DNA from: Nitrospirota bacterium
GTDB taxonomy: Bacteria; Nitrospirota; Thermodesulfovibrionia; UBA6902
Direction: 5' to 3'
DNA: 64,000 nucleotides
Assembly: GCA_016234115.1 (NCBI GenBank)
Contig: JACRHD010000018.1
Coordinates: 20,724 to 84,723, forward strand
Shown here: positions 15,136 through 35,959 of the stretch, piece by piece
Layout: every line of letters starts with the position of its first letter
How positions within the stretch are numbered: the first letter of the stretch is position 1
The notes under the pieces: generated by a model
The model's database searches: none
What the model was told of the DNA's origin: nothing
Seen by the model: the letters and a program-made list of their open reading frames with translations, nothing else
Position numbers and translations under genes: made by a program

Positions 15136-15200
15136 GTAAGGGCGACCCGGCGGGTCGCCCCTACGCTAAACTCTTAACTCTTGACTCTTGACTCTTGAAC
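15136..15200. repeat. GTAG-type REP hairpin with adjoining GAGTCAA heptamer arm overlapping the murD stop
   Basis: Minus strand: gagtcaa gagtcaa gagttaa gagttta gc GTAGGGGCGACCCGCCGGGTCGCCCTTAC. Confidence 0.85.
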
Positions 15201-16700
15201 CAGCTTCACCGCTTCCTTGAATTTCCTGCCCCTGTCTTCGAAATCCTTAAACATATCGAAGCTCGCGCACCCTGGCGACAGCAGTACGACATCTCCGGGA
15301 GACGCCTTTGCCATAGAAAGGTCAACCGCCGCCTGAAGGTCCCCTGCAATGAGGGTCTCCGTTACGCCTCCCAATGCCTCTTCAATCTTGTCTTTTGCCT
15401 TGCCGATTAAAACCAGGGCCTTCACTTTCCGCCTGACCAGGTCCCTCAGGACCGAGAAATCGCTCCCCTTGTCAAGCCCTCCCATAATTAAAATTACATC
15501 ATCAAGCCCCTCCAATGACTTAAACACAGCGCCGATGTTTGTCCCTTTGGAATCGTTAATGAACCTGACGCCTCCGACCTCGCCGGCAAATTCGAGCCTG
15601 TGTTCGAGACCCGGAAAACTCTTCAATACGTTTGCAATAGCGTCCGGGGGACATCCCGCTGAAAGGGCAACCAGGGCGGCCGCCATAGCGTTTTCGATAT
15701 TGTGAACACCCTGGATTTTTATCTCATTCTGAGATATAAGTGGGAAGTGAGAAGTGGGAAGTTGGAAGTGGGACGAATTGCAATAAATCATTCCGTCTTT
15801 CAAATAAACGCCCTCGACTTCTTTCATGCGACTGAAATAAAGTATTTTGGGTAATTTTTTACTTCTGACTTTCAACTTCTCAGTCCTCACTTTTTCTAAT
15901 ACATCATCAGCATTAAGGACCAGAAAATCATCGTGAGTCTGATTTTCAAAGATCCTCGCCTTGGCCTCGATGTACTCTTCCATGTTTTCATATCTGTCAA
16001 GATGGTCGGGCGTAATGTTGAGAACAGCCGCGATCTTCGGCCTGAATTCGTTAATTGTCTCGAGCTGGAAACTGGATATCTCGGCAACAATATAATCAAG
16101 AGGCAAGGGACGTGGACTTTCCCCTGACCCTTGACCCATGACCCTTGCCCCTGCCTTTAATATCTCCTCAGACAAGGCAATTCCTATGTTCCCTCCCAAC
16201 AGCGTACCGAACCCCGCCTCTTTCAGCATGAGGTCAACAAGCATGGTGGTTGTCGATTTCCCATTGGTGCCGGTAATGCCTATGAAGAAGGGGCAAGGGG
16301 CAAGGGGCAAGGGGCCGGGAGATCCATGACCCTTGACCCATGCCCCTTGACCCATTTGTTTAATCGCCTGATACGCGAGTTCGAGTTCGCCGATCACCGG
16401 GATGCCCTTTATTCTCGCGCGTTCGGGTACATGGGATTTTAGAGGCACTCCGGGGCTTATTATTATCATGTCGGCAGAGTCGATAATTTCATCCGGATCA
16501 TCACCGGTTAATATATTTACAGACGGCAGCAGTCTCTTAATATGGGCTTCAAGCGCACTTCTTGATTTACTGTCGGTAATTGTGACTTCAGCGCCTAACG
16601 CGGAGAGAAGGTTTGCCGCGCCCGTACCGCTTCGCGCAAGCCCGACTACTACGATGTTTTTACCTTTAAATGTCATTTCCTGTTTTTCCATTTGTATCAT
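15174..16700 (-). CDS. murD: UDP-N-acetylmuramoyl-L-alanine--D-glutamate ligase, with five repeat-derived segments
   Basis: VVGLARSG, ITGTNGKSTT, EISSFQL, GLEHRLE, NDSKGTN, LSPGCASFD. Confidence 0.98.
   Translation of the reverse strand: MIQMEKQEMTFKGKNIVVVGLARSGTGAANLLSALGAEVTITDSKSRSALEAHIKRLLPSVNILTGDDPDEIIDSADMIIISPGVPLKSHVPERARIKGIPVIGELELAYQAIKQMGQGAWVKGHGSPGPLPLAPCPFFIGITGTNGKSTTTMLVDLMLKEAGFGTLLGGNIGIALSEEILKAGARVMGQGSGESPRPLPLDYIVAEISSFQLETINEFRPKIAAVLNITPDHLDRYENMEEYIEAKARIFENQTHDDFLVLNADDVLEKVRTEKLKVRSKKLPKILYFSRMKEVEGVYLKDGMIYCNSSHFQLPTSHFPLISQNEIKIQGVHNIENAMAAALVALSAGCPPDAIANVLKSFPGLEHRLEFAGEVGGVRFINDSKGTNIGAVFKSLEGLDDVILIMGGLDKGSDFSVLRDLVRRKVKALVLIGKAKDKIEEALGGVTETLIAGDLQAAVDLSMAKASPGDVVLLSPGCASFDMFKDFEDRGRKFKEAVKLVQESRVKS
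15738..15895. repeat. Pair of five-heptamer arms in murD (AAGTGGG-type 15738-15772; ACTTCTC-type 15861-15895)
   Basis: Encode SHFQLPTSHFPL and KVRTEKLKVRSK. Confidence 0.8.
16098..16156. repeat. In-frame heptamer inverted repeat in murD
   Basis: Encodes GARVMGQGSGESPRPLPL before DYIVAEISSFQL. Confidence 0.85.
16290..16354. repeat. In-frame heptamer inverted repeat in murD
   Basis: Encodes MGQGAWVKGHGSPGPLPLAPCP immediately before FFIGITGTNGKST. Confidence 0.9.
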
Positions 16701-16712
16701 TCTGTATGTTCA

Positions 16713-16770
16713 CATGGGCAAGTCACCGACTCGCCCCTACCAAACTCTAAACTCTAAACTCTTGACTCTG
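16713..16770. repeat. GTAG-type REP hairpin abutting a GAGTTTA heptamer arm after the mraY stop
   Basis: Minus strand: gagtcaa gagttta gagttta gagtttg GTAGGGGCGAGTCGGTGACTTGCCCATG. Confidence 0.85.
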
Positions 16771-16775
16771 CCTTT

Positions 16776-17858
16776 TCACCTGACCTTCAATGTCGTCAAA
16801 CTCAGCAGCGCCAAAACAATCCCGACAATCCAGAACCGGATGATCACCTTGGGCTCCGGCCAGCCCATCACCTCGAAATGATGGTGTATAGGCGCCATCT
16901 TGAATACTCTTTTACCTGTAAGCTTAAACGATGTAACCTGGATAATAACCGAGAAGGTCTCAATAACAAATATGGCGCCGACAACCGCCAAAATGATCTC
17001 CTGCTTTGTTATCACCGCGAGGGTCCCTAACGCGCCCCCTAATCCGAGGGAGCCCACATCACCCATAAAAACGTCGGCGGGATAGCTGTTGTACCAGAGG
17101 AAACCGAGGGCCGCGCCGAACATCGCACCGCAAAAAACCGTAAGCTCTCCCGTGCCCGGCAGATAAAGGACCTGAAGGTATTGTGAAAATCCCGCATGCC
17201 CCGAGATATAAACGAATACTGCATTTGCAAGAGAAGCGACACCCACGAGACCTATCGCCAGACCGTCTATTCCATCCGTAAGGTTCACGGCGTTAGAGGA
17301 CCCTACTATTACGAGTATTATGAAAGGGATATAAAACCACCCCAGATCGATCAGCCATTTCTTGAAAAAAGGGATGCTCAGTTTGGCGATATAAATGTCA
17401 TTGGGATCGAAATAAAATACAAAGCCTATCAAAAGCGCAAGGAGGATCTGCGCGCCGAACTTGTACCAACCCTTCAGTCCCTTGGGGTTTTTCTTGATCA
17501 CCTTCAGGTAATCATCCGTCAGCCCTATAAGCCCGAAACCGACGATTGAGAAGACCATGATCAGGACAAATTTATTGCTCAGGTCCCCCCACAGCAGCAC
17601 GCTCGTCACAATAGACAAGATAATGATTACTCCGCCCATTGTCGGAGTGCCTTCCTTTTTCAGGTGTGTCCGGGGGCCGTCATCTCTGACATACTGGGTC
17701 ATGCTCAGCTTTCTGAGTTTTTTAATGATCGCCGGGGCGAATATAAACGTTATAAACAATGAAGTAATAATGGCGAGAGCCGTCCTGAAGGTAATGTACC
17801 TGAATACATTAAGGGCCGAATAGGAATCGTGAAAATAATAGAGCAGTTTATACAGCAC
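16776..17858 (-). CDS. mraY: Phospho-N-acetylmuramoyl-pentapeptide-transferase
   Basis: KEGTPTMGG, DDYLK, SNAVNLTDGIDGL, VFMGDVGSL, MAPIHHHFE; GTG start. Confidence 0.98.
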   Translation of the reverse strand: MLYKLLYYFHDSYSALNVFRYITFRTALAIITSLFITFIFAPAIIKKLRKLSMTQYVRDDGPRTHLKKEGTPTMGGVIIILSIVTSVLLWGDLSNKFVLIMVFSIVGFGLIGLTDDYLKVIKKNPKGLKGWYKFGAQILLALLIGFVFYFDPNDIYIAKLSIPFFKKWLIDLGWFYIPFIILVIVGSSNAVNLTDGIDGLAIGLVGVASLANAVFVYISGHAGFSQYLQVLYLPGTGELTVFCGAMFGAALGFLWYNSYPADVFMGDVGSLGLGGALGTLAVITKQEIILAVVGAIFVIETFSVIIQVTSFKLTGKRVFKMAPIHHHFEVMGWPEPKVIIRFWIVGIVLALLSLTTLKVR

Positions 17859-17942
17859 GTCTTCCCCCCGCGCCGACTCGAAAATCCCCCTCTTTTAAAA
17901 AGGGGGGGAAGTCTTTTACATATTTCTTTGTGATCAATCGAC

Positions 17943-19328
17943 TCACGTTGATAATCCTCTTATAATCCGCTCGGCTATTTTTTCCATCTTCATGGATCTT
18001 GATCCCTTTACCAGCACGGTATCTCCTTCTTTCAACAGGGTCATGATGCCTTCCGCAGCCTCTTCCGAATCTCTGAAGGTGTAAATTTCGGGACCGGTCT
18101 TTTTTTCTTTGATGTTTATGCAATCTTCCGCGGCCATACTCATCATCCGGCCGACGGCCATAAACACATCAACGCCTGCCCCTGATATCATCCTGCCGAG
18201 TTCTTTGTGGGCGTCGTCTGAAAATTCATCGAGCTCACCCATATCGCCCAGCACGGCGACCTTTCTTCCCAGGGCAGCCACCCGGATGGTCTCTTTCAGC
18301 GACTCTTCCATGGATGACGGGTTGGCATTGTAAGAATCATTTATCAAAGTTATTCCTTTTATCTTCCTGATCTCGAACCTCATCTTGCAGGCGCTGAAGG
18401 CTTCAAGCGCCGCCTTTATTTCCTCCAGGGGAACTCCTAAGGAAAAGCCCGCGGCAGCGGCAGCGAGCGCGTTATATACGTTAAACTTTCCATGCACGCT
18501 CAAATTTATGGGTATGCTGCCCGATTCTCTGAATTCCAGCGTAAACCCTGTCCCGCTTTCAGTGGCCCTGACCCCTTTGGCCATGACATGGGCCTCATTA
18601 TTTATTGAAAAGGTAATGACGTCGCCGTTGAATCTGCCCGCTTCGGCAAGCCCTTCCATTAAAAATCCGTCATCGGCATTGACCGCGGCAACTTGGAGTC
18701 CGTGCAGGATTTCGAGTTTTGCGTTCCGGACTGCTTCATGACTGCCGAGCCTGCCTAAATGGGCGGTCCCTATATTGGTAATTATTCCGTGTGTCGGGAC
18801 CGCTATCTCGCATAACCTTTTTATCTCCCCCGGGGCGTTCATCCCCATTTCAAGGACCACGGCCTCGTGGATATTCTCAAGCCTCGTCAGGCTCAGCGGC
18901 AAACCGATATGGTTATTCAGGTTGCCCTCGTTTTTAAGGGTCCTGAATCTCCTTGAGAGGACCGCGTACACCATTTCCTTTGTCGTCGTCTTTCCGCTGC
19001 TGCCTGTTATGGCGATTACCGGGACGTCCTTCTTCATCCGCATGAAATGGGCGAAATCCTGCAACGCGCTCAGCGTGTCCTTCACCCGGATTATCACCTT
19101 GCCCTTCGGCAGCGCTCCCTGCATTGACGACACCACCGCGCCGTCTCCTTTCAAAAGGGCCTTATCCAGGAAGGCATGCCCGTCGAAGTTATCGCCGCGC
19201 AGGGCAAAAAATATCTCTCCTTCCGCTATCGTCCTGGAATCTATCGAGACGCCGCTGAAGGCCATCGAACGTCCCGATAACAATTCTCCGCCTGTTGCCT
19301 TGAGAATGTCGTCTACGGTTATTGACAT
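17943..19328 (-). CDS. murF: UDP-N-acetylmuramoyl-tripeptide--D-alanyl-D-alanine ligase
   Basis: ITGSSGKTTTK, NLNNHIGLP, LEMGMN, NDSYNANP, VLGDMGELD, VKGSR. Confidence 0.97.
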   Translation of the reverse strand: MSITVDDILKATGGELLSGRSMAFSGVSIDSRTIAEGEIFFALRGDNFDGHAFLDKALLKGDGAVVSSMQGALPKGKVIIRVKDTLSALQDFAHFMRMKKDVPVIAITGSSGKTTTKEMVYAVLSRRFRTLKNEGNLNNHIGLPLSLTRLENIHEAVVLEMGMNAPGEIKRLCEIAVPTHGIITNIGTAHLGRLGSHEAVRNAKLEILHGLQVAAVNADDGFLMEGLAEAGRFNGDVITFSINNEAHVMAKGVRATESGTGFTLEFRESGSIPINLSVHGKFNVYNALAAAAAGFSLGVPLEEIKAALEAFSACKMRFEIRKIKGITLINDSYNANPSSMEESLKETIRVAALGRKVAVLGDMGELDEFSDDAHKELGRMISGAGVDVFMAVGRMMSMAAEDCINIKEKKTGPEIYTFRDSEEAAEGIMTLLKEGDTVLVKGSRSMKMEKIAERIIRGLST

Positions 19329-19410
19329 AATTCAAAATTCAACATTCAAGATTCAAAACCGGACATTCAGACAAGCTTAATCTTGAATGTTGAATTTTGA
19401 ATCTTGAATT
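19329..19410. repeat. Near-perfect heptamer inverted repeat (AATTCAA/CATTCAA/GATTCAA) spanning the murE stop to the murF ATG
   Basis: aattcaaaattcaacattcaagattcaa ... aatcttgaatgttgaattttgaatcttgaatt; gives MurE the tail IQDSKFNIQD. Confidence 0.92.
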
Positions 19411-20933
19411 GCTTTTTTTATGACCTCCTCATCGCTGAAGTGATGTCTCACTCCCTTAATCTCCTGGTAATTCTCATGGCCCTTGCCGGCAACAAGCACC
19501 GTGTCTCCGTCCTTTGCCATGAAGACCGCCTCCCTGATGGCCTCCGACCTGTCGGGCCGGACCGAATAATTGCCGCGCACGCCTTTTAATATGTCATCTA
19601 TTATTGCCCCCGGCTCTTCATTCCTGGGGTTGTCCGAGGTGACAATTACAAAATCACTGAGCTCCGATGCAACCGCGCCCATCAGGGGCCTCTTGGTCCT
19701 GTCCCGGTTGCCGCCACATCCGAAGACCGTTATCAACCGTCCCTTTGTCAGGGGTCTTGCCGCCTGTAAAAGTTTTTTCAGGGCGTCATCCGTGTGCGCA
19801 TAATCGACAATACACAGAAAGCCCTGCCCTTCGTCTATGTTTTCAAACCGGCCGGTTACAGGCCTCGTGTTCATGATCCCGGTCCGTATCGCCGTCTCAC
19901 TCATACCCAGAGAATACGCAATCCCCGCTGACATCAGGATATTGTAAACATTAAACATGCCGATCAACTGTGATTCAACCCTGAACCCTCCAGCCGGCGT
20001 CTTTATGTCAAACGATACGCCGCGCAATCCCTTCCCGTGTACGGGCGGGGTCACCCCGCCCCTACTTCTTGCCCCTTGCCCCTTGCCCCTTGCCCCTGTT
20101 TCTATGTTTTCCGCCCGTATCATCGCTCCTTCTTCAAGACCGCAGGTTGTGACCTCGCAGTCAAGGCTTTGAGCCAGAGGCCGCAGCCTCGGGTCATCCC
20201 AATTCAATACGGCAGTTCCGCCCGGGGCAAGATAATTGAATATCCTGCTCTTGGCGCGGAAGTATTCGTCCATGGTGCCGTGGAAATCGAGGTGGTCTTG
20301 CGAGAAATTGGTAAAGGCCGCTGTCTTAAAAGCGCATCCCTCTATCCTTTTAAGGGCCAGCGCGTGGGAAGAAACCTCTAATACCGCGTAATCCATCCTA
20401 TTATACACCATTTCACTCAGGCACCTTTGCAGGTCCAGGGACTCCGGCGTCGTATGCGATGCCGGGACCTCTTCTTCCCCGGTGATATAACAGATGGTTC
20501 CCATAAGGCCCGCCCTCTTTCCTCCGGCGTTCAGTATATTTCTTGTAATAAAGCTCGTTGTCGTCTTCCCGTTCGTTCCTGTAATTCCGATCAGTGATAA
20601 ACTCCTGGAGGGGTTTCCGTAAAAGGCGGCAGAGACGAGCGCGAGCGCTTCCCTGCTGTCGGTCACTTCAACGAAAGCAACGTTTTTTTGAATGGCGAAT
20701 GGTCCTGCGTCTTTTAAATCCGCCGCCGCCTTTTCCGAGACAATGGCAACAGCCCCCCTGTTTACCGCATCTCTAATGTAATCATGGCCGTCAACGGACA
20801 ACCCCCTGACAGCCACGAAGAGATAACCGTCTCTTACGGTCCTTGAATCATAAGCGATCCCCCTGATCTCGGCGTCTGGAGGTCCGGCCCTCCGTCTTAC
20901 GCTGAGACCCTCTGATAGTTTCGATATCGTCAT
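19377..20933 (-). CDS. murE: UDP-N-acetylmuramoyl-L-alanyl-D-glutamate--2,6-diaminopimelate ligase
   Basis: ITGTNGKTT, TTPES, EVSSHAL, DHLDFH, DYAHT, GCGGNRD, DNPR (meso-DAP type), GKGHE. Confidence 0.98.
   Translation of the reverse strand: MTISKLSEGLSVRRRAGPPDAEIRGIAYDSRTVRDGYLFVAVRGLSVDGHDYIRDAVNRGAVAIVSEKAAADLKDAGPFAIQKNVAFVEVTDSREALALVSAAFYGNPSRSLSLIGITGTNGKTTTSFITRNILNAGGKRAGLMGTICYITGEEEVPASHTTPESLDLQRCLSEMVYNRMDYAVLEVSSHALALKRIEGCAFKTAAFTNFSQDHLDFHGTMDEYFRAKSRIFNYLAPGGTAVLNWDDPRLRPLAQSLDCEVTTCGLEEGAMIRAENIETGARGKGQGARSRGGVTPPVHGKGLRGVSFDIKTPAGGFRVESQLIGMFNVYNILMSAGIAYSLGMSETAIRTGIMNTRPVTGRFENIDEGQGFLCIVDYAHTDDALKKLLQAARPLTKGRLITVFGCGGNRDRTKRPLMGAVASELSDFVIVTSDNPRNEEPGAIIDDILKGVRGNYSVRPDRSEAIREAVFMAKDGDTVLVAGKGHENYQEIKGVRHHFSDEEVIKKAIQDSKFNIQD
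20039..20098. repeat. In-frame GGGGCAA x4 arm plus GTAG REP hairpin within murE
   Basis: Encodes GARGKGQGARSRGGVTPPVH; minus strand ...gggcaag aa GTAGGGGCGGGGTGACCCCGCCCGTAC. Confidence 0.9.
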
Positions 20934-22729: not shown

Positions 22730-22811
22730 GTTCGTCCCAAAGTATTATTATTCTGTCATTCATTAAGACCTTCAGAAACTTATTTATATTGTTCCCTCTT
22801 AACCCTTCTCC

Positions 22812-22873
22812 CGGGGTCAAGGGAAGAAGTTAAGTGATTTTACCCTTGACCCTTGCCCCCGGACCCTTGACCC
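22812..22873. repeat. Heptamer inverted repeat (GGGTCAA) after the ftsL stop
   Basis: ggggtcaaggg ... cccttgacccttgcccccggacccttgaccc. Confidence 0.8.
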
Positions 22874-22875
22874 TT

Positions 22876-23205
22876 TTATTTCAACGACGCCTTATACGGT
22901 CCTGCCGCAGGCGTTCTCTTGACGTAAAATACATTTTCCCTCACAGGGAGGGTCATCCCGAGCCGGTCCACCGCGACCCTTTCTATCTTCTCAGTCGAGT
23001 AAAGACTTGCCCTCTGCGCAACCACCATCTTCCTTTCGCGCACATGCTCCACCCGGAGCCTGTCAAGCTCCCCCAACTCATATTCAAGATTTATCACCGC
23101 GGCCTTCAGCCATACAATCGCAAAAAGGCAGAATATGAAATATAACGGGAAACAAAACATCAGCAGGCCCTTTTTCCTGCTGTTTTTCACTCTCGGCCTG
23201 CTCAT
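22876..23205 (-). CDS. ftsL: Cell division protein FtsL-like
   Basis: Basic N-terminus, TM, coiled coil, ERVAVDRLGM; between rsmH and ftsI. Confidence 0.75.
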   Translation of the reverse strand: MSRPRVKNSRKKGLLMFCFPLYFIFCLFAIVWLKAAVINLEYELGELDRLRVEHVRERKMVVAQRASLYSTEKIERVAVDRLGMTLPVRENVFYVKRTPAAGPYKASLK

Positions 23206-24746: not shown

Positions 24747-25622
24747 ATGGTCGATATCATAGAAAGGTTCCTGTCTTATCTGACAATCGAAAAAGGACTT
24801 GCATCGAACACAATAGAAGCGTACAAAAGAGACCTGCGTAAATTCAGCGCTTATCTCAGCGAGGCGGGGAAAGATATAACGGACTTCGGCCGCGGCGATA
24901 TCCTTTCCTTCATAAGCCGTCTCCGGGATTCCGGAAACCAGACTGCCACCCTTGCAAGAAACATATCCGCACTGCGTGGCTTATGCAAATTCATGCTCAT
25001 TGAAAAAATCATCTCGGAAGACCCGGTTGAAAACCTCGCCGCGCCCAAGGGCTGGAAAAGGGTCCCGAAAATAATCGGCGTCGAAGACGTCTCCTCCCTG
25101 CTCAGAAAACCTGCCGGGGAGAAATTCTCCCTCAGGGACCAGGCCATCCTTGAGATACTTTATTCATGCGGCCTGAGGGCCAGTGAAGTGATAAACATGA
25201 AAGTCAGCGACATAAATTTTGAAGCCGGCTTTATAATCATTTTAGGGAAAGGGTCCAAGGAAAGGGTCGTGCCGGTGAATGAGACGGCGCTGGAGACCAT
25301 AAAAAAATATATCGGGGAGTTGCGACCGGCCCTCCTCAATAAAAAAACAAGTCCCTTTCTGTTCCTGCGAAAAGGCGGAAAACCGATGACGAGGCAGAGA
25401 CTGTGGCAGTTGATAAAGACCTACTCCGGGGGACTGCCGGTCAGCGTCTCTCCTCACACCCTCAGGCACTGTTTTGCGAGTCACCTGCTGGACGGGGGCG
25501 CGGACCTGAGGGCGCTGCAGAAAATGTTGGGGCACGCGGACATATCCACAACACAGATATACACAAAAGTCACGCCCGAACGGCTGAGGAAAATTCATAA
25601 GGAATTCCATCCCAGGGGATAG
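24747..25622 (+). CDS. xerD: Site-specific tyrosine recombinase XerD
   Basis: GLASNTIEAYKRDL, GLRASE, GKGSKER, HTLRHCFASHLL, LGH, TTQIYT. Confidence 0.93.
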   Translation: MVDIIERFLSYLTIEKGLASNTIEAYKRDLRKFSAYLSEAGKDITDFGRGDILSFISRLRDSGNQTATLARNISALRGLCKFMLIEKIISEDPVENLAAPKGWKRVPKIIGVEDVSSLLRKPAGEKFSLRDQAILEILYSCGLRASEVINMKVSDINFEAGFIIILGKGSKERVVPVNETALETIKKYIGELRPALLNKKTSPFLFLRKGGKPMTRQRLWQLIKTYSGGLPVSVSPHTLRHCFASHLLDGGADLRALQKMLGHADISTTQIYTKVTPERLRKIHKEFHPRG

Positions 25623-28866: not shown

Positions 28867-28909
28867 GAGTTAGTTATAATGCCCGAATCCGGTAAGTCCC
28901 TGAAAAACA

Positions 28910-28984
28910 TGGTGGGCGATGAGGGTATCGAACCCACGACCTCTTCCGTGTGAAGGAAGCGCTCTCCCACTGAGCTAATCGCCC
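28910..28984 (-). tRNA. tRNA-Val(CAC)
   Basis: GGGCGATTAGCTCAGTGGGAGAGCG CTTCC TT CAC AC GGAAG AGGTC GTGGG TTCGATA CCCTC ATCGCCC ACCA; full cloverleaf, encoded CCA. Confidence 0.95.
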
Positions 28985-29403
28985 TCGGCGGCATTAATTA
29001 AAGATTATAAGGAAACCCGCTGTTTAAATCAAATGTTCCGTGATATGGATTACGAATCATTTTATCTCTATCTGTTAAGATGAAATTATGCTGACTGAGA
29101 AATTGCTCACACTGTGTTACTTGAAGGATTTTTTACAACGCATTAAGAAAATCGTAAAAAAAGATTCTCTTGACAACAGGGGGATTTATCTGATTTCATT
29201 AATTGGCGTTGAAAGTTTGTATAATCGGAGTTCTTTTTGATATGATCTGTACGATTAATAATTGTTCTATTGGAAATAGCAATGGTGAAAGTATAAGGTT
29301 TAAGGATTTAATAATTTTTCCCGATAAAGTCACTATATAAAGGGCGCAATATGTAACACGATAAAACTGATGAGAAAAAATAATTATATAGTGAGAGCAG
29401 ACG

Positions 29404-29448
29404 AGACCATCTTAAGGCTGAGACACGCCGTCAAGATGGTCTTTTTTC
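29404..29448 (+). terminator. Terminator-like hairpin in the pilM leader
   Basis: Perfect 10-bp stem agaccatctt/aagatggtct, inner ggc-tgagacac-gcc hairpin, followed by a T run. Confidence 0.55.
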
Positions 29449-29475
29449 ATACCTTGTTAAATAAGGAGAGGAACG

Positions 29476-30534
29476 ATTATTAACATATTCGGGAAAAAAG
29501 GGATTGTCGGACTTGATATCGGCTCCAGGCACATCAAGGCCGTTCAACTAAAAGAAGTCAGAGGGAAATATCACCTTGAGCGCCTGGGAATTACCACCCT
29601 TGAACCCGAACTGATTGTAGATGGTTCCATACTTGATTCAGCCCGCGTCATCGAAGCGATCAAGGGACTGATCGCGAATACCAACATCAAGGTGAAGGAC
29701 GTCACTTTATCTCTTTCAGGCCATTCTTCGGTAATTATAAAAAGGGTGTCCCTCCCTGAGATGTCGGAGGATGAACTGGGCGAATCGATAAAATTTGAGG
29801 CAGAGCAGTATATTCCGTTCGATATCGAAGACGTTAACCTCGACTTTCAGATACTCGGTCTGGCCGATAAGGCAAATATGATGGATGTCGTTATCGTTGC
29901 CGCAAAGAAAGACAAGATAAACGAGTACGTGACGGTGGCCAAAGAAGCGGGACTGTCTCCCGTTATTGTCGATGTCGATGCGTTCGCTCTTGAAAATATG
30001 TACGAACTCAATTACGAAGTGAAGCAGGATGAGAATGTGGCTATTGTCAATATCGGGGCAAGTATGATCAATATCAACATCCTGAAGGGAGGGGGGTCAG
30101 TCTTTACAAGAGACAGCGCTGTCGGCGGCAATCTGCATACCGAGGCCTTGCAAAAGGAATTTACCATATCATATGCCAGCGCGGAAAAGCTGAAACAGGA
30201 AGGCTCTATGGAGGGGATTTCCAAAGAGGATGTTGCTGCGGCGCTGACCTCTGCCTCGGAAGACATAATTGCGGAAATCTCCCGTTCGTTCGATTATTTC
30301 AGGGACACTACAAACTATGAGAATATCAACGAGATACTATTATGCGGGGGAGGGGCGCTTACCGAGGGGTTTGTCTCTATGCTGGCAGAGAAATCCGGAA
30401 TAAATGTCAGGATGGTAGAGCCCCTTAAGAATATCCATGTCCCGGACTCTTTCGACAGGGAATACTTAAGTAAGGTTGAGCCCGTCATATCCGTCGCCGT
30501 AGGGCTGGCCTTAAGGAGCTTAGGGGACAAATGA
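29476..30534 (+). CDS. pilM: Type IV pilus assembly protein PilM (start inferred at ATT; ORF track starts late at 29692)
   Basis: In-frame IFGKKGIVGLDIGSRHIKAVQL upstream of 29692; FEAEQYIPF, VDVDAFAL, NIGAS, CGGGA, VAVGLALR. Confidence 0.9.
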   Translation: MINIFGKKGIVGLDIGSRHIKAVQLKEVRGKYHLERLGITTLEPELIVDGSILDSARVIEAIKGLIANTNIKVKDVTLSLSGHSSVIIKRVSLPEMSEDELGESIKFEAEQYIPFDIEDVNLDFQILGLADKANMMDVVIVAAKKDKINEYVTVAKEAGLSPVIVDVDAFALENMYELNYEVKQDENVAIVNIGASMININILKGGGSVFTRDSAVGGNLHTEALQKEFTISYASAEKLKQEGSMEGISKEDVAAALTSASEDIIAEISRSFDYFRDTTNYENINEILLCGGGALTEGFVSMLAEKSGINVRMVEPLKNIHVPDSFDREYLSKVEPVISVAVGLALRSLGDK

Positions 30535-31061
30535 TAAGAATAAATCTGCTCCCGACAAAAAAGGCGATAAAAATACCCCCTGTCTTTTCTTACGGCATGG
30601 CCGCCGCCGTTATATTGGTGATCGTCCTTTTGGCATCCGGCGTTTACCTCTCTAATAAGGTTTCAGGAATGCAGGCCGATGTGAAGACCAAGGAAAAGAG
30701 GCTGGAGGAACTGAAGAAGGCGATACTGGAAATCCAGAACTATGAGAAATACAATCAGGAGGTAAGAGAGAAGACCCAGATAATCGAGCAATTAAAAAGG
30801 AACCAGGTCGTGCCGCTGAGACTCCTTGACGGAGTGAGCGAAATGCTTCCAAACGGAGTGTGGCTTACGTCTCTTACAGACAAGGACGGAGTTGTAAGTA
30901 TAGAAGGGTATGCCCATACGAATTATGATCTGGTCGGATATGTCCAGAACCTTAAGGGGGCCAAATACTTTACGGACGTTATGCTGGTGGAATCCCGGCA
31001 GACGGCGATCGAATCGGTTTCTGTTTACAAATTCAAGCTCACATTCAGGATCAAAGGGTAG
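30531..31061 (+). CDS. pilN: Type IV pilus assembly protein PilN
   Basis: MIRINLLP motif, TM, coiled coil, LPNGVWLTSL. Confidence 0.92.
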   Translation: MIRINLLPTKKAIKIPPVFSYGMAAAVILVIVLLASGVYLSNKVSGMQADVKTKEKRLEELKKAILEIQNYEKYNQEVREKTQIIEQLKRNQVVPLRLLDGVSEMLPNGVWLTSLTDKDGVVSIEGYAHTNYDLVGYVQNLKGAKYFTDVMLVESRQTAIESVSVYKFKLTFRIKG

Positions 31062-31066
31062 AGAAT

Positions 31067-31747
31067 ATGGCGATCAATATAAACATAAATTTCAGCAGAG
31101 TAAAAAAACTTCCTGTGAAATTACAGGTCCTGATAGTGGCGATACCCTGTCTTGTGCTTCTCGCGCTGTTTATATTTCTTGTTCTCCTGCCGAAACATAA
31201 GGAAATCCGTACGCTCGATGCCAGGATAGCAAAACTGAACCAGGAGATTGCCGGCAGCGAAGCCATGGTCAAGAGACTTGACGTGCTGATCGAAGAAAAT
31301 AAAATGTTAAAAACAAAATTGGCGAAATTGAAGGAGCAGCTTCCAGAGGAGAAAGAGGTATCCGAGCTTTTGAGGCAGACCTCCGAATTGGGGCTCCAAT
31401 CAGGGCTGGAAATACTCTTATGGAGACCGGAGGCAAAGAAGACAAGCCCGGACTATCTTTATGTTGAAATACCCGTAAAGGTCGAAGTGCTGACGGGATA
31501 TCATAATCTCGGTGTCTTTTTCAGCCATATCAGCCGGTTGCCGCGTCTTGTGAATATTTCCGGCATCGAGCTGCGCGTCAAGGAGAAGAAGGGCGCCGGG
31601 GAAGGCGACATCACTGCCGCGTTTACCGCGCGTACATTCGCCTCCGTAAGCCCTGAAGAACTGAGCAGGATGAAAGCCGCGGAGCCTGTAAAGGACCCGA
31701 AAGGGCAGGGCGCGTCAAAGGGCCAGGCGGCGCCGGAGAAAAAATGA
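31067..31747 (+). CDS. pilO: Type IV pilus assembly protein PilO
   Basis: LPEEKEVSELL, YHNLGVFFSHISRLPRLVNI. Confidence 0.92.
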   Translation: MAINININFSRVKKLPVKLQVLIVAIPCLVLLALFIFLVLLPKHKEIRTLDARIAKLNQEIAGSEAMVKRLDVLIEENKMLKTKLAKLKEQLPEEKEVSELLRQTSELGLQSGLEILLWRPEAKKTSPDYLYVEIPVKVEVLTGYHNLGVFFSHISRLPRLVNISGIELRVKEKKGAGEGDITAAFTARTFASVSPEELSRMKAAEPVKDPKGQGASKGQAAPEKK

Positions 31748-32292
31748 AAACTAAGGATAAACACATAAAATTTGCCGCGGCCTTACTGTCCGTATCGCTG
31801 CTTCTTATCCCGGTCCTGCATGGATGCAAGAAGAAGACGCCGCCTGCCAAGCCCGGAGCTACCCAGGGCGAAACAGGGCAGCCGGTCGCGTCCCTGGCCA
31901 GGCAACCGGAGGCGGCAGTAGTGGAAACCGTACAGGAAGAAGGTTACATTTATCAGCCTGGAGACCGGAGGGACCCTTTCGTACCTCTCATCGTACCGAC
32001 CCAAAAAGCTGAAGCGAAAGGGACCCCGGCGGCACGGTTAGGCACTCTTGAAAGTTATGATATCACTGAATTTGCATTATTGGCTATCGCCAAGAAAGGC
32101 GACAAATATTATGCGCTCCTTATTACGCCCGACAACAGGTCTTTCACGGTATATAAAGGATCGGGCATCGGATTACATAAGGGGCGTGTCGAAGACATTT
32201 CGGGCGGCAAAGTCGTATTAGTTGAATACTCAAAGGATTTCAGAGGAGACTTGCGGCCCAAACAAATAATTTTAGAATTAAAAGAGAGGTAA
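31744..32292 (+). CDS. pilP: Type IV pilus assembly lipoprotein PilP
   Basis: Lipobox LHGC, RRDPF, LESYDITEFAL, GLHKGRV. Confidence 0.88.
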   Translation: MKTKDKHIKFAAALLSVSLLLIPVLHGCKKKTPPAKPGATQGETGQPVASLARQPEAAVVETVQEEGYIYQPGDRRDPFVPLIVPTQKAEAKGTPAARLGTLESYDITEFALLAIAKKGDKYYALLITPDNRSFTVYKGSGIGLHKGRVEDISGGKVVLVEYSKDFRGDLRPKQIILELKER

Positions 32293-32296
32293 AATA

Positions 32297-34006
32297 ATGC
32301 GAATCGGGAAATGCTTTTTATATTTTATGGTCTTATTGATCGGGGGCCTTCCGGTGTTTGATGCCCTGGCGCAAGAGCATCCGGAGATTAAGAGTATAGA
32401 GGTACAGGACCGTAACGGGACCACCGAAATTAAAATAATATCAAGCGCTCCCTTTAATTATATTGTCGACAAGGAATCCGACCCGTATCAGGTTATCGTC
32501 GAACTGCAGAATATGGAACTGGGCGAATTTCGGGAGAAGATGATCGTCAACAAGGCCGGCGTATCGGAGATAATACCCATGCAGGACCGGAGTTCATCCG
32601 GTATCTCCAAATTAAAGATTGCCCTGACAGTGCCTGCAGATGTCGAGCCGGAGTATGTGGACAACACCCTTATTCTTACCTTCATGAACCCGGAACATGC
32701 TGAATCCATGAATGCGCCGGGGGAGACGGAAGAGGCGTCATCCGTGGAGACAGAGGAAAGGAAGCCTTTTGAAACCAGGGAATACGTAGGTGAGAAGATC
32801 AATATTGATTTCCAGGAGGCGGACCTTGTCCATATCTTCAGGCTTATCGCGGATATAAGCGGTTATAACATCGTCGTGAGTCCTGAGGTAAAGGGCAAAT
32901 TTTCCATGAAGCTCATCGACGTGCCGTGGGACCAGGCCCTTGATGTGATACTTAGAAATTATGGTCTTTCCAAGACACTGGACGAGAACATCATTCGTAT
33001 AGCGCCGACTGCCGTAATCGCCAAGGAGGAAGAAGAAATCGCTCAGGCAAAAGAGTCCCAGGAAAAATCCGGCAATCTCGTCACTAAGGTATACGCGATC
33101 AATTATGCCAACGTTGATGAGGTCAAAAGATCGGTTGAGACGGCCAAGATACTTTCAAAGCGGGGGTTCATCAGCGCTGATGCAAGGACAAGCTCCGTCA
33201 TCATCAAAGACGTTGAAAAAATGCATACTGAATTTGGGACCATCATCGAGGCGCTCGATGTCCCGACTCCCCAGGTCAGCATTGACGCGAAGATTGTGGA
33301 AGTCAATACTACTTATTCAAAGGAACTCGGGATACAATGGGGAGCGCTTGCTAAGCCCAATCCCCAGTCACAGATTTCAGGCACGAACCTCACTACCGCC
33401 AACGGTTTCTTCTCCGGCAATCCTTTGCTGGTAAATCTTCCCGCTGCCGTTAGTCCGGGGTCGGGAGGCGCAATAGGGATAGGCTATATATCCGCAGGCA
33501 TTCTGAGGTCAATCGACATACAGCTTTCCGCGCTGGAATCCATCGGTAAAGGCAAGGTGGTCTCAAGCCCGAGGGTAATGACAATGGACAACCAGAAAGC
33601 GAAGATCCTGCAGGGCAAGAAAATCCCATATGAGACAATTTCTCAGGAAGGGACGCAGACCGCGTTTGTCGATGCGGCGCTGGAGCTTACGGTTACTCCT
33701 CACATAACGCCTGAAGGGACCATTCTCATGAATATCGATACGAAAAAGAATGAAGCGGATTTTTCCAATGTTTCTTTCAACGGCGTGCCCACCATAAATA
33801 CCAACGAGCTCTCAACGCAGGTATTGATAAAAGACGGAGACACGCTGGCCTTAGCCGGGATACTGAAGACAATATATTCAAAAGACTCGACAGGCGTGCC
33901 TAAATTGAGAACGATACCAGGCTTCGGATGGCTGTTCAAGAAAGAAGAAAAGACGGAAGACTCAACCGAGCTGATGATTTTTATAACTCCGAGGATAGTG
34001 AAATGA
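32297..34006 (+). CDS. pilQ: Type IV pilus secretin PilQ
   Basis: AMIN-like N-terminus, YVGEKINIDFQEADL, VPWDQALD, QVSIDAKIVE, IPGFGWLFK, ELMIFITPRIV. Confidence 0.95.
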   Translation: MRIGKCFLYFMVLLIGGLPVFDALAQEHPEIKSIEVQDRNGTTEIKIISSAPFNYIVDKESDPYQVIVELQNMELGEFREKMIVNKAGVSEIIPMQDRSSSGISKLKIALTVPADVEPEYVDNTLILTFMNPEHAESMNAPGETEEASSVETEERKPFETREYVGEKINIDFQEADLVHIFRLIADISGYNIVVSPEVKGKFSMKLIDVPWDQALDVILRNYGLSKTLDENIIRIAPTAVIAKEEEEIAQAKESQEKSGNLVTKVYAINYANVDEVKRSVETAKILSKRGFISADARTSSVIIKDVEKMHTEFGTIIEALDVPTPQVSIDAKIVEVNTTYSKELGIQWGALAKPNPQSQISGTNLTTANGFFSGNPLLVNLPAAVSPGSGGAIGIGYISAGILRSIDIQLSALESIGKGKVVSSPRVMTMDNQKAKILQGKKIPYETISQEGTQTAFVDAALELTVTPHITPEGTILMNIDTKKNEADFSNVSFNGVPTINTNELSTQVLIKDGDTLALAGILKTIYSKDSTGVPKLRTIPGFGWLFKKEEKTEDSTELMIFITPRIVK

Positions 34007-34082
34007 GTTCTCTTAAGTTGACGATGACACGTGACGATAAGAGTAAAGTAATGAATTCGGCAAATCGAGAAGTAGAAAAATC

Positions 34083-34571
34083 ATGTTTGGAGGCAAAATG
34101 AGAACACTTACTGTTCCTTTAATGATAGTGGCCCTGTTTTTGATATTATCCGCCTGCGGGGGTGGGGGCGGCGGCGTCGACGCCCCGGCTGAGAGCACTC
34201 TTACCACCAGCGTCGCTTCAATATCCGTGGAATTTGCGGAGACTGATCCTTATAGCTGCAGCATCGTAGATTCTTTTGTAATCAGCGCCAAGACTGCAAG
34301 TGGAATCCCGCTTAATAATGTAACCCTGACGATATTTTTCCCGTATGCGCAGCCGTACGGGTCTATTCAGTTGTATGACGGAAACCCCGCGTCCGGGGCC
34401 CCTGCCAAAGATGCGCCGATGACTGTAACAACTGATGAGAATGGGATATATATCCTTTACTTTACATATTGCGGAGGGGGAGGCGTAGAATATAAATCCG
34501 ACTTCACTGTCACTTCAGGTGCCCTCTTTGAAGCTGTGACATTCGAAGTAAAGAAAGTTTCGGATGCTTAG
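34083..34571 (+). CDS. Hypothetical lipoprotein, beta-rich (Ig-like), downstream of pilQ
   Basis: Lipobox LSAC followed by GGGGG; TTDENG motif typical of Ig-like domains. Confidence 0.6.
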   Translation: MFGGKMRTLTVPLMIVALFLILSACGGGGGGVDAPAESTLTTSVASISVEFAETDPYSCSIVDSFVISAKTASGIPLNNVTLTIFFPYAQPYGSIQLYDGNPASGAPAKDAPMTVTTDENGIYILYFTYCGGGGVEYKSDFTVTSGALFEAVTFEVKKVSDA

Positions 34572-34594
34572 CAGCAGCTAATTAGAAAATGCGC

Positions 34595-34629
34595 AAACAA
34601 AAATACCCCTTACCGGGGTATTTTTGTTT
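34595..34629. terminator. Bidirectional intrinsic terminator-like palindrome
   Basis: aaacaaaaatacccc ttacc ggggtatttttgttt. Confidence 0.7.
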
Positions 34630-34708
34630 GCCGTCGTCCATGCTTCGGCAGCCACCTTTACTTCCCTATTCATTTCTAATAACATAGAAGCAAAAAGTCA
34701 CACATCCT

Positions 34709-35959
34709 ATGCTTGAAAAATTAAGATACCTGACAACGGGTGAGTCACACGGGCCGGCTTTGATTTGCGTAATCGAGGGAGTCCCGTCCAATCTTTCTTT
34801 ATCCGGAGAAGATATTGACAGGGACCTTATCAGGAGGCAAAGAGGCTACGGCAGAGGCGGCAGGATGAAAATAGAATCCGACCACGCTCAAATCATGTCC
34901 GGCGTCCGTCACGGTAAAACACTCGGCTCTCCGATATCCCTGCTTATTGAAAATAAAGACTGGGAGAATTGGCGTCACATCATGAATCCTGAACCTGCGG
35001 GGGAGATTCATGAATCGCCCCTGCAAAACCAATCCCCAATCTCCAATCCCAAATCCCAACCTGTTACCCGCCCGCGTCCGGGACACGCGGACCTTGCGGG
35101 AGCCCTGAAATATAACACTCATGACATGCGCAATATCCTTGAACGCTCAAGCGCCCGCGAAACTGCCGCGAGGGTGGCGGCCGGAGCAGTGGCGAAGAAG
35201 TTCCTCGCTGAATTCAATATACGGATTGTCAGCTATGTAACTGAGATAGGGGGAATAAAGGGGCAAGGGGCAGGGGTCAAGGGGCAAGGGGCAGAAAAGA
35301 ATTTGTTAGCGCTATTTAAACAAGCGGAAGCGTCTCCGGTCAGATGTCCTGATAAGGAAGCTGAAATGAGAATAATTAAAAAAATCGATGAGGCCATGAA
35401 AAGGGGCGATACCCTTGGCGGGGTTTTTGAGGTGATGGCATTTGGGGTCCCGGCGGGACTCGGCAGCCATACACAATGGGACCGGAAGCTCGACGCGAAA
35501 CTGTCGTCCTCTCTGATGAGTATCCAGGCGATTAAAGGTGTCGAGATAGGACTCGGGGTCGAGATGAGCAGGCGGTGTGGATCGGAGGTTATGGATGAAA
35601 TATTCTATAAAGGGTCAAGGGTCAGGGGGCAAGGGTCAGGATTCTACAGAAAGACGAATAATGCCGGAGGCATCGAGGGCGGAATGAGCAACGGTATGCC
35701 TATTATGGTCAGGGCCGCGATGAAACCGATACCTACCTTGAAAAAGCCGCTGGCCTCTGTGGACGTCATTACCAAAAAGCCGTTCACGGCTGCATATGAA
35801 AGATCGGATGTGTGCGCGGTGCCTGCTGCATCGGTTATCGGAGAGGCTGTAACGGCAATAGCGATTGCAGACAGCTTCCTTTGCAAGTTCGGCGGCGACA
35901 GCATGGAAGAAGTCAGGAGAAATTACGAAGGGTACATGAAGCAGACGGGTAAATTCTGA
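34709..35959 (+). CDS. aroC: Chorismate synthase, with three repeat-derived inserts
   Basis: [55 protein letters not shown]. Confidence 0.98.
34997..35059. repeat. Decayed REP hairpin plus CAATCCC heptamer arm, in frame in aroC
   Basis: gcgggggagattcatgaatcgcccctgc aaaa ccaatcc ccaatct ccaatcc caaatcc; encodes [21 protein letters not shown]. Confidence 0.8.
35260..35294. repeat. In-frame GGGGCAA/GGGGTCA half-array in aroC
   Basis: Encodes [12 protein letters not shown]. Confidence 0.85.
35611..35640. repeat. In-frame AGGGTCA half-array in aroC
   Basis: Encodes [11 protein letters not shown] between DEIFY and [10 protein letters not shown]. Confidence 0.85.

What the first reader, a model, noticed from the sequence alone, without database searches (positions are those of the whole stretch)
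15136..35059. Heptamer arms abut the GTAG end of REP hairpins at four loci
Seen: at 15136-15200, 16713-16770, 20039-20098 and 34997-35059 a heptamer arm runs up to a GTAGGGGCG..CGCCC-type hairpin with a 0-5 nt gap. The polarity is always the same: purine-rich arm, then GTAG (GCAG in the decayed aroC copy). The arm heptamer differs (GAGTCAA/GAGTTTA, GGGCAAG, GGGATTG), and two composites are in frame in murE and aroC. Established: the GTAG tetranucleotide beside a hairpin is the guide/recognition end for REP-associated tyrosine transposases (RAYT/TnpA-REP), which cut single-stranded DNA near it. Inference: REPs either insert preferentially into heptamer elements, replacing spacer and second arm, or the arrays are generated at RAYT cleavage sites. 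This would mechanistically link two repeat systems.
Basis: partly seen in the sequence, partly recalled or inferred. Interest (0 to 1): 0.72.

Follow-up and report, generated by a model that had tools for sequence, protein, structure and literature searches.

The report
REP hairpins abutting heptamer repeat arms
In this Nitrospirota genome, small GTAG-type REP hairpins sit head-first against one arm of the genome's abundant 7-base tandem-repeat elements far more often than chance allows, which suggests that one kind of small repeat lands in and partly replaces the other; this is a new twist on known REP behaviour, not a new kind of system.

Summary
Three exact GTAGGGGCG-headed hairpins and one decayed copy each have a period-7 array ending 1-4 nt before the GTAG head. 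The chance of this for three hairpins is about 1e-7.

The window comes from a Thermodesulfovibrionia-like Nitrospirota MAG. It carries about 0.3 heptamer arrays per kb, many of them in frame inside dcw genes and aroC. The hairpins belong to the pan-bacterial GTAG class of REPs.

In 795 kb from 82 related loci I found 253 arrays and about 30 such REPs:
- 16-17 REPs abut an arm, at 7 independent sites, always at the GTAG end.
- About 12-14 REPs have no arm.
- No clear REP has an arm at its tail.

Among about 160 such hairpins from other phyla, only one has an array nearby.

At orthologous codon positions, relatives show four alternative states: two-arm hairpin, single arm, REP only, and arm plus REP. 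Two sites give a direction. At murD-A a two-arm element came first. In the murE loop every lineage has the arm and only the window has the REP. In both, the REP arrived beside an existing arm and replaced the spacer and distal arm.

RAYT involvement is inferred. None was found in the window or in the clade sample. This is a new variant of REP target preference, of moderate interest.

The parts
15136..15164 (-). REP hairpin 1: GTAGGGGCGACCCGCCGGGTCGCCCTTAC, 13-bp stem. It lies between the murD stop codon and the ftsW start codon.
   Evidence: -13 kcal/mol, z = -4.5. The orthologous copy in L001 has no arm.
15167..15198 (-). Heptamer arm 1 (CAAGAGT x4, minus-strand sense), ending 2 nt before GTAG. 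It encodes the last 7 residues of MurD and its TAA stop codon.
   Evidence: Homologous AAAAGTK-type arms without a REP occur in L004 and L126.
16713..16740 (-). REP hairpin 2: GTAGGGGCGAGTCGGTGACTTGCCCATG, in the mraY-murD intergenic junction.
   Evidence: z = -4.0. Orthologous arm-plus-REP composites occur in L128, L126, L209, L210 and L211, with compensatory stem changes.
16742..16769 (-). Heptamer arm 2 (GAGTCAA GAGTTTA GAGTTTA GAGTTT), 1 nt from GTAG.
20039..20065 (-). REP hairpin 3: GTAGGGGCGGGGTGACCCCGCCCGTAC. It is a 27-nt in-frame insert (9 codons) in a MurE surface loop.
   Evidence: z = -3.7. It is absent from all 11 relatives at this site.
20068..20097 (-). Heptamer arm 3 (GGGGCAA x4), in frame in murE, ending 2-3 nt before GTAG.
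   Evidence: A homologous arm is present at this site in every relative examined.
34997..35024 (-). Decayed REP 4: GCAGGGGCGATTCATGAATCTCCCCCGC, in frame in aroC. It is antisense to the gene but on the same DNA strand as the other three.
   Evidence: hairpin no better than shuffles. L135 has an orthologous GCAGGGGC hairpin without an arm. The ATTCATGAAT stem subfamily recurs in L003, L209, L210 and L211.
35029..35057 (-). Heptamer arm 4 (GGGATTG-type on the minus strand, CCAATCC on the plus strand), in frame in aroC, 4 nt from GCAG.
16288..16355 (-). Two-arm heptamer hairpin element in frame in murD (site murD-A). This is the alternative state of a site that carries arm plus REP in L126, L209 and L211, and a stub plus REP in L003.
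16097..16152 (-). Arm plus spacer plus short second arm, in frame in murD (site murD-B). The site carries arm plus REP in L125, L126, L209 and L211, and REP only in L003, L004 and L212.
15738..15773 (-). Single arm in frame in murD (site murD-C). The same site carries REP only in L209 and L211.

Best explanation
Two families of small structured repeats live together in this Thermodesulfovibrionia-like genome.

(1) Heptanucleotide tandem arrays, about 4 units long, are usually paired as two complementary arms around a 5-30 nt spacer, forming long hairpins. They sit at a limited set of insertion-tolerant hot spots: intergenic junctions of the dcw operon and surface loops of MurE, MurD, MurC and AroC. 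They are old, vertically inherited and homogenised in place.

(2) GTAG-class REP hairpins have a conserved GTAGGGGCG head, a variable inner stem and a CGCCC(YTAC) tail. They are members of a pan-bacterial REP superfamily. Their stem subfamilies recur at different loci and in different genomes, so they move.

The composite arises when a REP integrates at the loop-proximal (3') end of one arm of a pre-existing heptamer element, with its GTAG head facing the arm. The spacer and distal arm are displaced and then lost.

The likely agent is a Y1 (RAYT / IS200-IS605-type) transposase working on single-stranded DNA. A long heptamer hairpin extruded on ssDNA offers a stem-loop junction that resembles the enzyme's natural REP/BIME substrate. 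The GTAG guide then fixes the orientation.

Shown: the non-random abutment, the polarity, the alternative states at orthologous sites, and the direction of change at two sites.

Inferred: the enzyme, the ssDNA intermediate and the stem-loop junction as the target.
For: - Abutment in the window is far from chance: P is about 1.6e-7 for three copies.
- In 795 kb of related loci, 16-17 composites occur at 7 independent sites, all with a 0-5 nt gap and the arm at the GTAG head. No clear REP has an arm at the tail. At 6 sites the proximal end is exactly GTAG and the distal end is not, which gives a one-sided P of about 0.016.
- Arrays greatly outnumber REPs (253 against about 30), and most arrays have no REP.
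- In the murE loop the arm is present in all 12 lineages, and the 27-nt REP only in the window, 2-3 nt after the arm.
- At murD-A, L004, L212 and L210 share a homologous arm-spacer-arm' element. Given the tree, two-arm is therefore ancestral for that clade. The group (L209,(L126,L211)) and, separately, L003 have a REP in place of spacer plus arm'. L209 still keeps an arm' remnant (CCCTTACCCCTC) after the REP.
- The same site carries different REP subfamilies in different genomes. One genome (L126, L209 or L211) carries the same subfamily at 2-3 nearby sites. This is what recurrent, genome-specific REP insertion predicts.
- The aroC composite and the L210:2308 composite are antisense to their host genes, yet lie on the same DNA strand as the dcw composites of the same genome. 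Orientation therefore follows the DNA strand rather than transcription.
- Literature: GTAG acts as a guide and recognition motif for ssDNA cleavage (PMC8266576). Some REP families are regularly nested in other palindromic repeats (PMC3733652).
- Exploratory: arm units next to REPs resemble the REP head (xxAGGGG / xTAG) more than arrays in general do. The mean is 4.2 of 7 matches against 2.7.
Against: - No RAYT (PF01797) gene was found in the window or in any of the 82 clade loci. The rest of the genome could not be searched.
- REP-only states exist at murD-B (L003, L004, L212), aroC (L135) and murD/ftsW (L001). There the order of events is ambiguous, or even suggests that the REP came first.
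- There is only one intermediate of the form arm-REP-arm' (L209), and that assembly has frameshifts.
- There are two ambiguous exceptions. L209:19282 has an arm 12-15 nt from the non-GCAG end. L127 murD-B has a decayed GTAG head followed 3' by a pyrimidine array.
- The independent sites are few (7), most lie in a single operon, and all the data are from MAGs.
- No conserved target motif is visible at the junctions.
Confidence: 0.5

Rival explanations
1. Arrays are seeded at the REP. Either a nick made by a RAYT 5' of GTAG, or replication stalling and slippage at the stable hairpin, tandemly duplicates the 7 nt just upstream of the head. The REP may later decay or be replaced by a fold-back copy of the arm, giving a two-arm element.
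For: - REP-only states alongside arm-plus-REP states occur at the same sites: aroC (L135 against the window), murD-B (L003, L004 and L212 against L125, L126 and L211), and murD/ftsW (L001 against the window).
- At murD-A, L003 has a single AAGTCAGAA before the REP where L126 and L211 have (TCAGCAG)3-4. This could be read as an expansion of local sequence.
- Each site has its own heptamer, as in-situ generation predicts.
- The polarity towards the GTAG end fits a cut made near the guide.
Against: - 253 arrays against about 30 REPs, and most arrays are far from any REP.
- The murE arm is present in all 12 lineages but the REP in only one.
- Only about 1 of 160 GTAG hairpins from other phyla has an array nearby, so RAYT/REP activity does not in itself make arrays.
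- REPs with GTAG at both ends (L211:9732) have an arm on one side only.
- Two-arm is the ancestral state at murD-A.
Confidence: 0.2
2. Safe-haven coincidence. In a compact genome, and inside essential genes, only a few positions tolerate insertions. Both repeat types therefore pile up independently at the same hot spots, and selection on reading frame, stop codons and hydrophilic peptides shapes their order. There is no mechanistic link.
For: - The same 5-7 sites are occupied in every lineage by one element or another. These include a third family of hairpins with a run of 5-7 C, a spacer and a run of 5-7 G.
- All intragenic copies keep the reading frame.
- About half of the clade's REPs have no arm.
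Against: - Gaps are always 0-5 nt and the arm is always at the GTAG end. The tolerant loops are 60-100 nt long, and four configurations of side and orientation are possible. At roughly 0.05-0.2 per site, 7 sites give 1e-5 or less.
- Two composites lie antisense to their genes and keep the same REP-relative polarity.
- Two composites are intergenic, where there is no coding constraint.
- A REP is never found inside an arm or on its 5' side.
Confidence: 0.15
3. The composite is a selected functional module, for example an unstructured purine-rich tract followed by a stable hairpin in the dcw mRNA that acts in processing, stability or translational coupling. On this view the arrangement is kept by selection and not produced by an insertion mechanism.
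For: - The mraY-murD composite is conserved in 6 lineages spanning the whole clade, with compensatory stem changes: AGTC..GACT, AGGC..GCCT and AGGCGGCGCCT.
- G:T pairs favour the GTAG strand. REPs are known to act as RNA elements (PMC3733652).
Against: - The same junction is occupied by unrelated elements in L001, L003, L004, L125 and L127.
- The composites in aroC and at L210:2308 are antisense to the mRNA.
- The arms differ in sequence and copy number.
- There is no Rfam match.
- The stem differences follow the REP subfamily of each genome, which fits replacement as well as compensation.
Confidence: 0.1

Closest known systems
GTAG-class REPs and their RAYT/TnpA-REP transposases (REPtrons), as in Nunvar 2010, Di Nocera 2013 (PMC3733652) and Corneloup 2021 (PMC8266576)
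   Same: - A 5' GTAG (or GYAG) tetranucleotide directly at the foot of a 20-40 nt imperfect palindrome.
- Subfamilies that differ by complementary stem changes.
- G:T pairs on one strand.
- Occasional in-frame intragenic copies.
- Presence in many phyla.
   Different: - They are singletons, not BIME or REPIN doublets.
- About half abut a heptamer array.
- Density is modest, about 30 in 795 kb.
- No cognate RAYT has been located.
REP families nested in other palindromic repeats (A. variabilis GTAG-15 dimers within long palindromes, T. roseum GTAG-23 within CCGSSCC..GGSSCGG; Di Nocera 2013, section read)
   Same: A REP family regularly associated with a second, hairpin-forming repeat that looks like its preferred target.
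   Different: - In those cases the REP sits in the middle of a fixed-sequence palindrome and both halves are retained.
- Here the partner is a variable-sequence period-7 array, only one arm is retained, and the junction is polar.
Cyanobacterial STRR (short tandemly repeated repetitive) heptanucleotide arrays (Mazel et al. 1990; from my own knowledge, not checked here)
   Same: Tandem heptamers of a few units, many different units per genome, often able to form hairpins, and also found inside genes (RNase P RNA). Some units are alike (GGTCA-containing and CCCCAAT-like).
   Different: - The phylum is different (Nitrospirota).
- In-frame occupation of essential protein genes.
- To my knowledge no REP association has been reported for STRRs.
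IS200/IS605 (IS608, ISDra2) target selection on ssDNA
   Same: The proposed logic is the same. A tetranucleotide guide 5' of a hairpin chooses the cleavage and integration site. Insertion is polar and strand-specific (PMC8266576, PMC6006769).
   Different: - Those elements insert 3' of a defined tetra- or pentanucleotide, whereas no conserved junction motif is seen here.
- No transposase has been shown.
Rickettsia palindromic elements (RPEs) inserted in frame in protein genes (Ogata/Claverie, cited in PMC3733652)
   Same: Palindromic repeats tolerated in frame in surface loops of essential proteins.
   Different: RPEs are 100-150 bp members of one family. Here the elements are 27-29 nt REPs plus 28-nt arrays, with rapid turnover of states at fixed hot spots.

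Membership tests
GTAG-class REP (REP/RAYT system) | Conserved GTAG (GYAG/GTRG) tetranucleotide 0-2 nt 5' of the palindrome | tested here: met
   Three exact GTAG heads and one GCAG. The same holds for the copies in relatives.
GTAG-class REP (REP/RAYT system) | Imperfect palindrome of 20-40 nt that folds as a stable stem-loop on one strand | tested here: met
   Copies 1-3 give -7.5 to -14.3 kcal/mol with z of -3.7 or lower. Copy 4 fails because it is decayed.
GTAG-class REP (REP/RAYT system) | Repeated family: the same element at many unrelated loci in a genome | tested here: inconclusive
   Stem subfamilies (ATTCATGAAT, AACGGCCGTT, AGGCGGTGCCT, GGGTTTNAAACCC) recur at different loci and in different genomes. 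Only 4 copies are visible in the 64-kb window, each of a different subfamily. The genome-wide copy number could not be obtained.
GTAG-class REP (REP/RAYT system) | A cognate RAYT (Y1 transposase, PF01797 / NF047646) in the same genome, typically flanked by the REPs | not testable with these tools
   None was found among 30 window ORFs scanned with Pfam, or in six-frame ORFs of all fetched loci searched with a RayT HMM. A RayT carrying such a hairpin in frame was found only in a Pedobacter locus.
GTAG-class REP (REP/RAYT system) | Extragenic location | tested here: not met
   Two of the four copies are in frame inside murE and aroC. Intragenic REPs are a documented minority behaviour (PMC3733652), so this does not exclude membership.
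BIME / REPIN | Two REPs in inverted orientation separated by a short linker, forming the mobile unit | tested here: not met
   All four window copies and nearly all clade copies are singletons.
Cyanobacterial STRR arrays | Tandem heptanucleotide repeats, several distinct units per genome | tested here: met
   27 period-7 TRF rows in the window. 253 arrays with many different units in 795 kb.
Cyanobacterial STRR arrays | Occurrence in (heterocystous) cyanobacteria | tested here: not met
   The best hits of the window's MurE are Nitrospirae/Nitrospiraceae MAGs, and the complete dcw operon organisation is shared with them.
Known structured RNA families (Rfam) | A match to a curated covariance model at the composites | tested here: not met
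   The only Rfam hit in the window is tRNA-Val at 28913-28984.

The most novel reading that the evidence does not exclude
The GTAG foot of a stable hairpin is where heptanucleotide arrays are born or extended. A Y1-transposase nick, or hairpin-stalled replication, repeatedly duplicates the 7 nt upstream. The two-arm heptamer hairpins that fill these genomes, and perhaps cyanobacterial STRRs too, would then descend from REP-seeded arrays. That would be a previously undescribed enzymatic route to tandem repeats, and it would give the two repeat systems a common origin.
Probability: 0.12. Interest if true: 0.85.

Novelty: new variant of a known kind. Interest (0 to 1): 0.56.

Why it matters
How REPs choose where to land, and where heptanucleotide (STRR-like) arrays come from, are both open questions.

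This clade offers a natural experiment. A handful of fixed hot spots, several of them inside essential genes, switch between four states: two-arm hairpin, single arm, REP only, and arm plus REP. Whenever a REP and an arm are both present, they are joined at a tight, polar junction. That makes a concrete hypothesis testable with existing assays, namely that a Y1 transposase targets the stem-loop junction of another hairpin repeat on ssDNA. It also gives dated examples of repeat-encoded peptides being added to and swapped in MurE, MurD and AroC loops.

If the link fails, the system is still a clean case of safe-haven stacking of small repeats.

Tried and rejected
1. The genome-wide test on the window's own genome failed. 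MurE is not on record for the look-up of encoding contigs. It served only as an out-group control, in which 1 of about 160 hairpins had a nearby array.
2. L055 (a Nitrospiraceae MAG) has two inverted REPs 475 bp apart and looked like a REP-flanked RAYT. It is leuS with two in-frame REPs.
3. The REP pair in L131 flanks ribH, not a transposase.
4. I looked for a RAYT with a regex, Pfam and an HMM. The only hit was a Pedobacter RayT. A homology search with it returned 5,520 hits, but the 120 listed were mostly Bacteroidota or unnamed, so it said nothing about Nitrospirota.
5. One-mismatch matches to GTAGGGGCG in the window are at chance level, and I dropped them. TTAGGGGCG at 11395 is coding sequence without a hairpin.
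6. Literature searches for heptamer repeats in Nitrospirae, for STRR, and for the motif itself gave nothing relevant.
7. I looked for a conserved target motif at the arm/REP junctions and found none. The junctions are T-rich in some cases, with no constant CT or CA.
8. The automatic census flagged one 'tail-arm' case (L126:14435). On inspection, the script had chosen the wrong strand because of a stem mismatch.
9. GC skew in the window follows gene strand and does not reveal the direction of replication.

Full report
**Context.** The window comes from a Nitrospirota (Thermodesulfovibrionia-like) MAG. Its MurE is at most 79% identical to proteins named 'Nitrospiraceae/Nitrospirae bacterium'. 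A complete dcw operon, mraZ to ftsZ, lies on the minus strand at about 5.6-24.5 kb. aroC lies on the plus strand at 34709-35959.

The window is saturated with period-7 tandem arrays. TRF reports 27 period-7 rows. Many form two complementary arms around a 5-30 nt spacer, giving long hairpins. Several are in frame inside murC, murD, murE, aroC and ORF 1447-3516.

**Checking the observation.**
- Exact GTAGGGGCG occurs three times, always on the minus strand, and each is the head of a 27-29 nt hairpin.
- These three fold strongly as ssDNA, with z from -3.7 to -4.5.
- The fourth, in aroC, has GCAG and a decayed stem (z = +0.13). A relative (L135) has a GCAGGGGC hairpin at the same codon position.
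- In each case a period-7 array runs to within 1-4 nt of the head.
- A random position in the window has such an array next to one given end with P = 0.0055. Three out of three therefore has P of about 1.6e-7.
- The murE and aroC composites are in frame. The arm of the first composite supplies the C-terminal 7 residues and the stop codon of murD.

**What the hairpins are.** The hits came from Chloroflexota, Cyanobacteria, Acidobacteriota, Geomonas, Clostridia and many others. In all of them the head and tail are conserved and the inner stem varies. This matches the GTAG super-family of REPs described in more than 80 species of 8 phyla, which includes subfamilies with complementary stem changes, G:T pairs and occasional intragenic copies (PMC3733652).

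GTAG is the recognition and guide-like motif of TnpA-REP/RAYT, which cleave ssDNA at CT or CA sites near the hairpin (PMC8266576).

One locus from the scan, from a Pedobacter, encodes a Y1 transposase. It scores 30 bits against PF01797 (cut-off 23) and 60 bits against NF047646, which is below that model's cut-off. It carries such a hairpin in frame within its own gene.

Of about 160 hairpins from these other phyla, only one has a heptamer array nearby (Oscillochloris, L121). REPs by themselves do not come with arrays.

**Clade census.** I assembled 82 non-redundant loci (795 kb) of relatives:
- eleven dcw loci obtained through MurE homologues;
- aroC loci from metagenomes.

They contain 253 period-7 arrays and about 30 GTAG-class REPs.
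- Sixteen or seventeen REPs abut an arm with a 0-5 nt gap.
- The composites fall at seven independent sites: the mraY-murD junction (window, L128, L126, L209, L210, L211), the murD C-terminus/ftsW junction (window), the murE loop (window), murD-A (L126, L209, L211), murD-B (L125, L126, L209, L211), the aroC loop (window), and a glycosyltransferase-9 gene (L210:2308).
- In every case the arm is at the head. At six sites the proximal end is exactly GTAG and the distal end is not, giving a one-sided P of about 0.016.
- About 12-14 REPs have no arm.
- No clear REP has an arm at its tail. The one automatic 'tail' call was a strand-choice artefact.
- Two cases are ambiguous. L209:19282 has an arm 12-15 nt from a GTAA end. 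L127 murD-B has a decayed head followed by a pyrimidine array.
- The aroC and L210:2308 composites are antisense to their host genes, yet lie on the same DNA strand as the dcw composites of their genomes. Polarity therefore follows the REP and the DNA strand, not transcription.

**Orthologous sites.** The same codon positions or junctions carry different states in different lineages. The states are two-arm hairpin, single arm, REP only, arm plus REP, and sometimes a hairpin made of a C run and a G run.

The arms at a given site are recognisably homologous across lineages, but they differ in unit sequence and copy number. At murE, for example, the units are GGGGCAA, GAGGCAA, GGAGTCA, CAGTCAG and GAAGTCA. 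The arms are therefore old and evolve in concert.

I built a neighbour-joining tree from 1,292 aligned residues of MurE, MurF and MraY. It allows two polarised inferences.
1. At murD-A, L004, L212 and L210 share a homologous arm-spacer-arm' element, so two-arm is ancestral for that clade. The group (L209,(L126,L211)) and, separately, L003 have a REP where spacer and arm' were. L209 still keeps an arm' remnant after the REP.
2. In the murE loop all 12 lineages have the arm, and only the window has the 27-nt REP, 2-3 nt after it.

Both inferences say the REP arrived next to an existing arm. Elsewhere the order is ambiguous: at murD-B, aroC and murD/ftsW, REP-only relatives exist. L001 carries the orthologous REP of composite 1 without the arm, while L004 and L126 carry the homologous arm without the REP.

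One site can hold different REP subfamilies in different genomes, and one genome often holds the same subfamily at two or three neighbouring sites. This is what recurrent insertion, or overwriting by each genome's currently active REP family, would produce.

**Interpretation.** GTAG-class REPs integrate preferentially, and in a fixed orientation, at the loop-proximal end of one arm of pre-existing heptamer hairpin elements, and the spacer and distal arm are lost.

A Y1/RAYT-type ssDNA mechanism is the natural candidate. The guide lies 5' of the hairpin, the outcome is strand-specific, and a long extruded hairpin would offer a REP-like stem-loop junction. This step is inferred.

An exploratory comparison suggests that arm units next to REPs resemble the REP head more than arrays in general do: 4.2 against 2.7 of 7 matches. 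This is post hoc.

The rivals:
- Seeding of arrays at REPs cannot explain the bulk of arrays, but it is not excluded locally.
- Pure hot-spot coincidence does not explain the 0-5 nt gaps and the single polarity.
- A selected RNA module fits the conserved mraY-murD composite but not the antisense copies or the replaced ones.

**Limits.**
- No RAYT was found in the window or in any clade locus, and the rest of the genome was out of reach.
- Independent sites are few, and most are in one operon.
- All sequences are from MAGs. One of them (L209) has frameshifts at these repeats.

**Novelty.** REPs nested in other palindromic repeats are known, and so are heptamer arrays (STRRs, from my own knowledge). 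I did not find a description of a polar REP-heptamer-arm junction, nor of the switching of states at in-frame hot spots in a Nitrospirota clade. I rate it a new variant of a known kind, of moderate interest.

Noticed in passing
window 1356-1438, 2202-2273, 4048-4142, 4643-4712, 11663-11731, 12785-12849, 16288-16355, 19329-19409 and others: The genome carries about 0.3 heptamer arrays per kb. Most form two complementary arms plus a spacer, giving long hairpins. Many are in frame in essential genes (murC, murD, murE, aroC, ORF 1447-3516). The insertion sites are conserved across a clade with only 60-80% protein identity, while the heptamer sequence and copy number change. This resembles cyanobacterial STRRs, but in Nitrospirota.
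   Followed up: partly
window 3114-3167, 17886-17906, 47488-47538, 55030-55049; L141, L150, L177, L197 (aroC loop); L003 and L004 (murE loop): A third repeat family: hairpins made of a run of 5-7 C, a T/A-rich loop and a run of 5-7 G (for example CCCCCCTTTG..AAAGGGGGG). They are intergenic in the window. In relatives they are in frame at the same aroC and murE hot spots, giving peptides such as PPFxKGG.
   Followed up: partly
L071 3366-3960 (Pedobacter sp., NZ_JAVHXT010000005.1): A RayT-like Y1 transposase gene (PF01797) carries a GTAGGGGCG-type hairpin in frame inside its own coding sequence (peptide ..GEHKGSPL..). Homologues vary in length from 187 to 275 aa, which suggests that such inserts are common in this family.
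   Followed up: partly
L055 976-998 and 1451-1473 (uncultured Nitrospiraceae, CAYMUX010000073.1): Two GTAG REP hairpins in inverted orientation, both in frame inside leuS.
   Followed up: yes
L121 about 2380-2450 (Oscillochloris sp., CAIXLU010000485.1): The only composite found outside Nitrospirota: a GATTGTG/GATTGCA heptamer array 10 nt from a perfectly palindromic GTAGGGGCGCGTCGCGACGCGCCCCTAC.
   Followed up: no
window 52100-55019 and 63383-63982: A low-GC segment (GC 0.43 at 52-56 kb) holds an MjaI-like restriction endonuclease gene (PF09568) next to two uncharacterised ORFs. Further on there is a Shedu SduA C-terminal domain protein and an HTH protein. This is probably a small defence island.
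   Followed up: partly
L209 14128-15627 and 20690-21533 (ERZ25039602 contig_11939): murD and ddl are each split into two ORFs exactly at REP or array inserts. At murD-B the REP head has lost one G. These are either homopolymer errors in the assembly or real frameshifts caused by the repeats.
   Followed up: no
L125 14790-14843 and L211 9700-9760: Nearly the same composite, (CAGTCAG)4 plus a G[TC]AGGGGCGAACGGCCGTTC.. REP, sits at murD-B in two genomes from opposite sides of the clade tree. This suggests either deep ancestry with many replacements or recombination between lineages.
   Followed up: no
window 24747-25622 and 28910-28984: A XerC/D-type tyrosine recombinase gene lies divergently next to mraZ in the window and in all relatives. 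tRNA-Val(CAC) is at 28910-28984.
   Followed up: no
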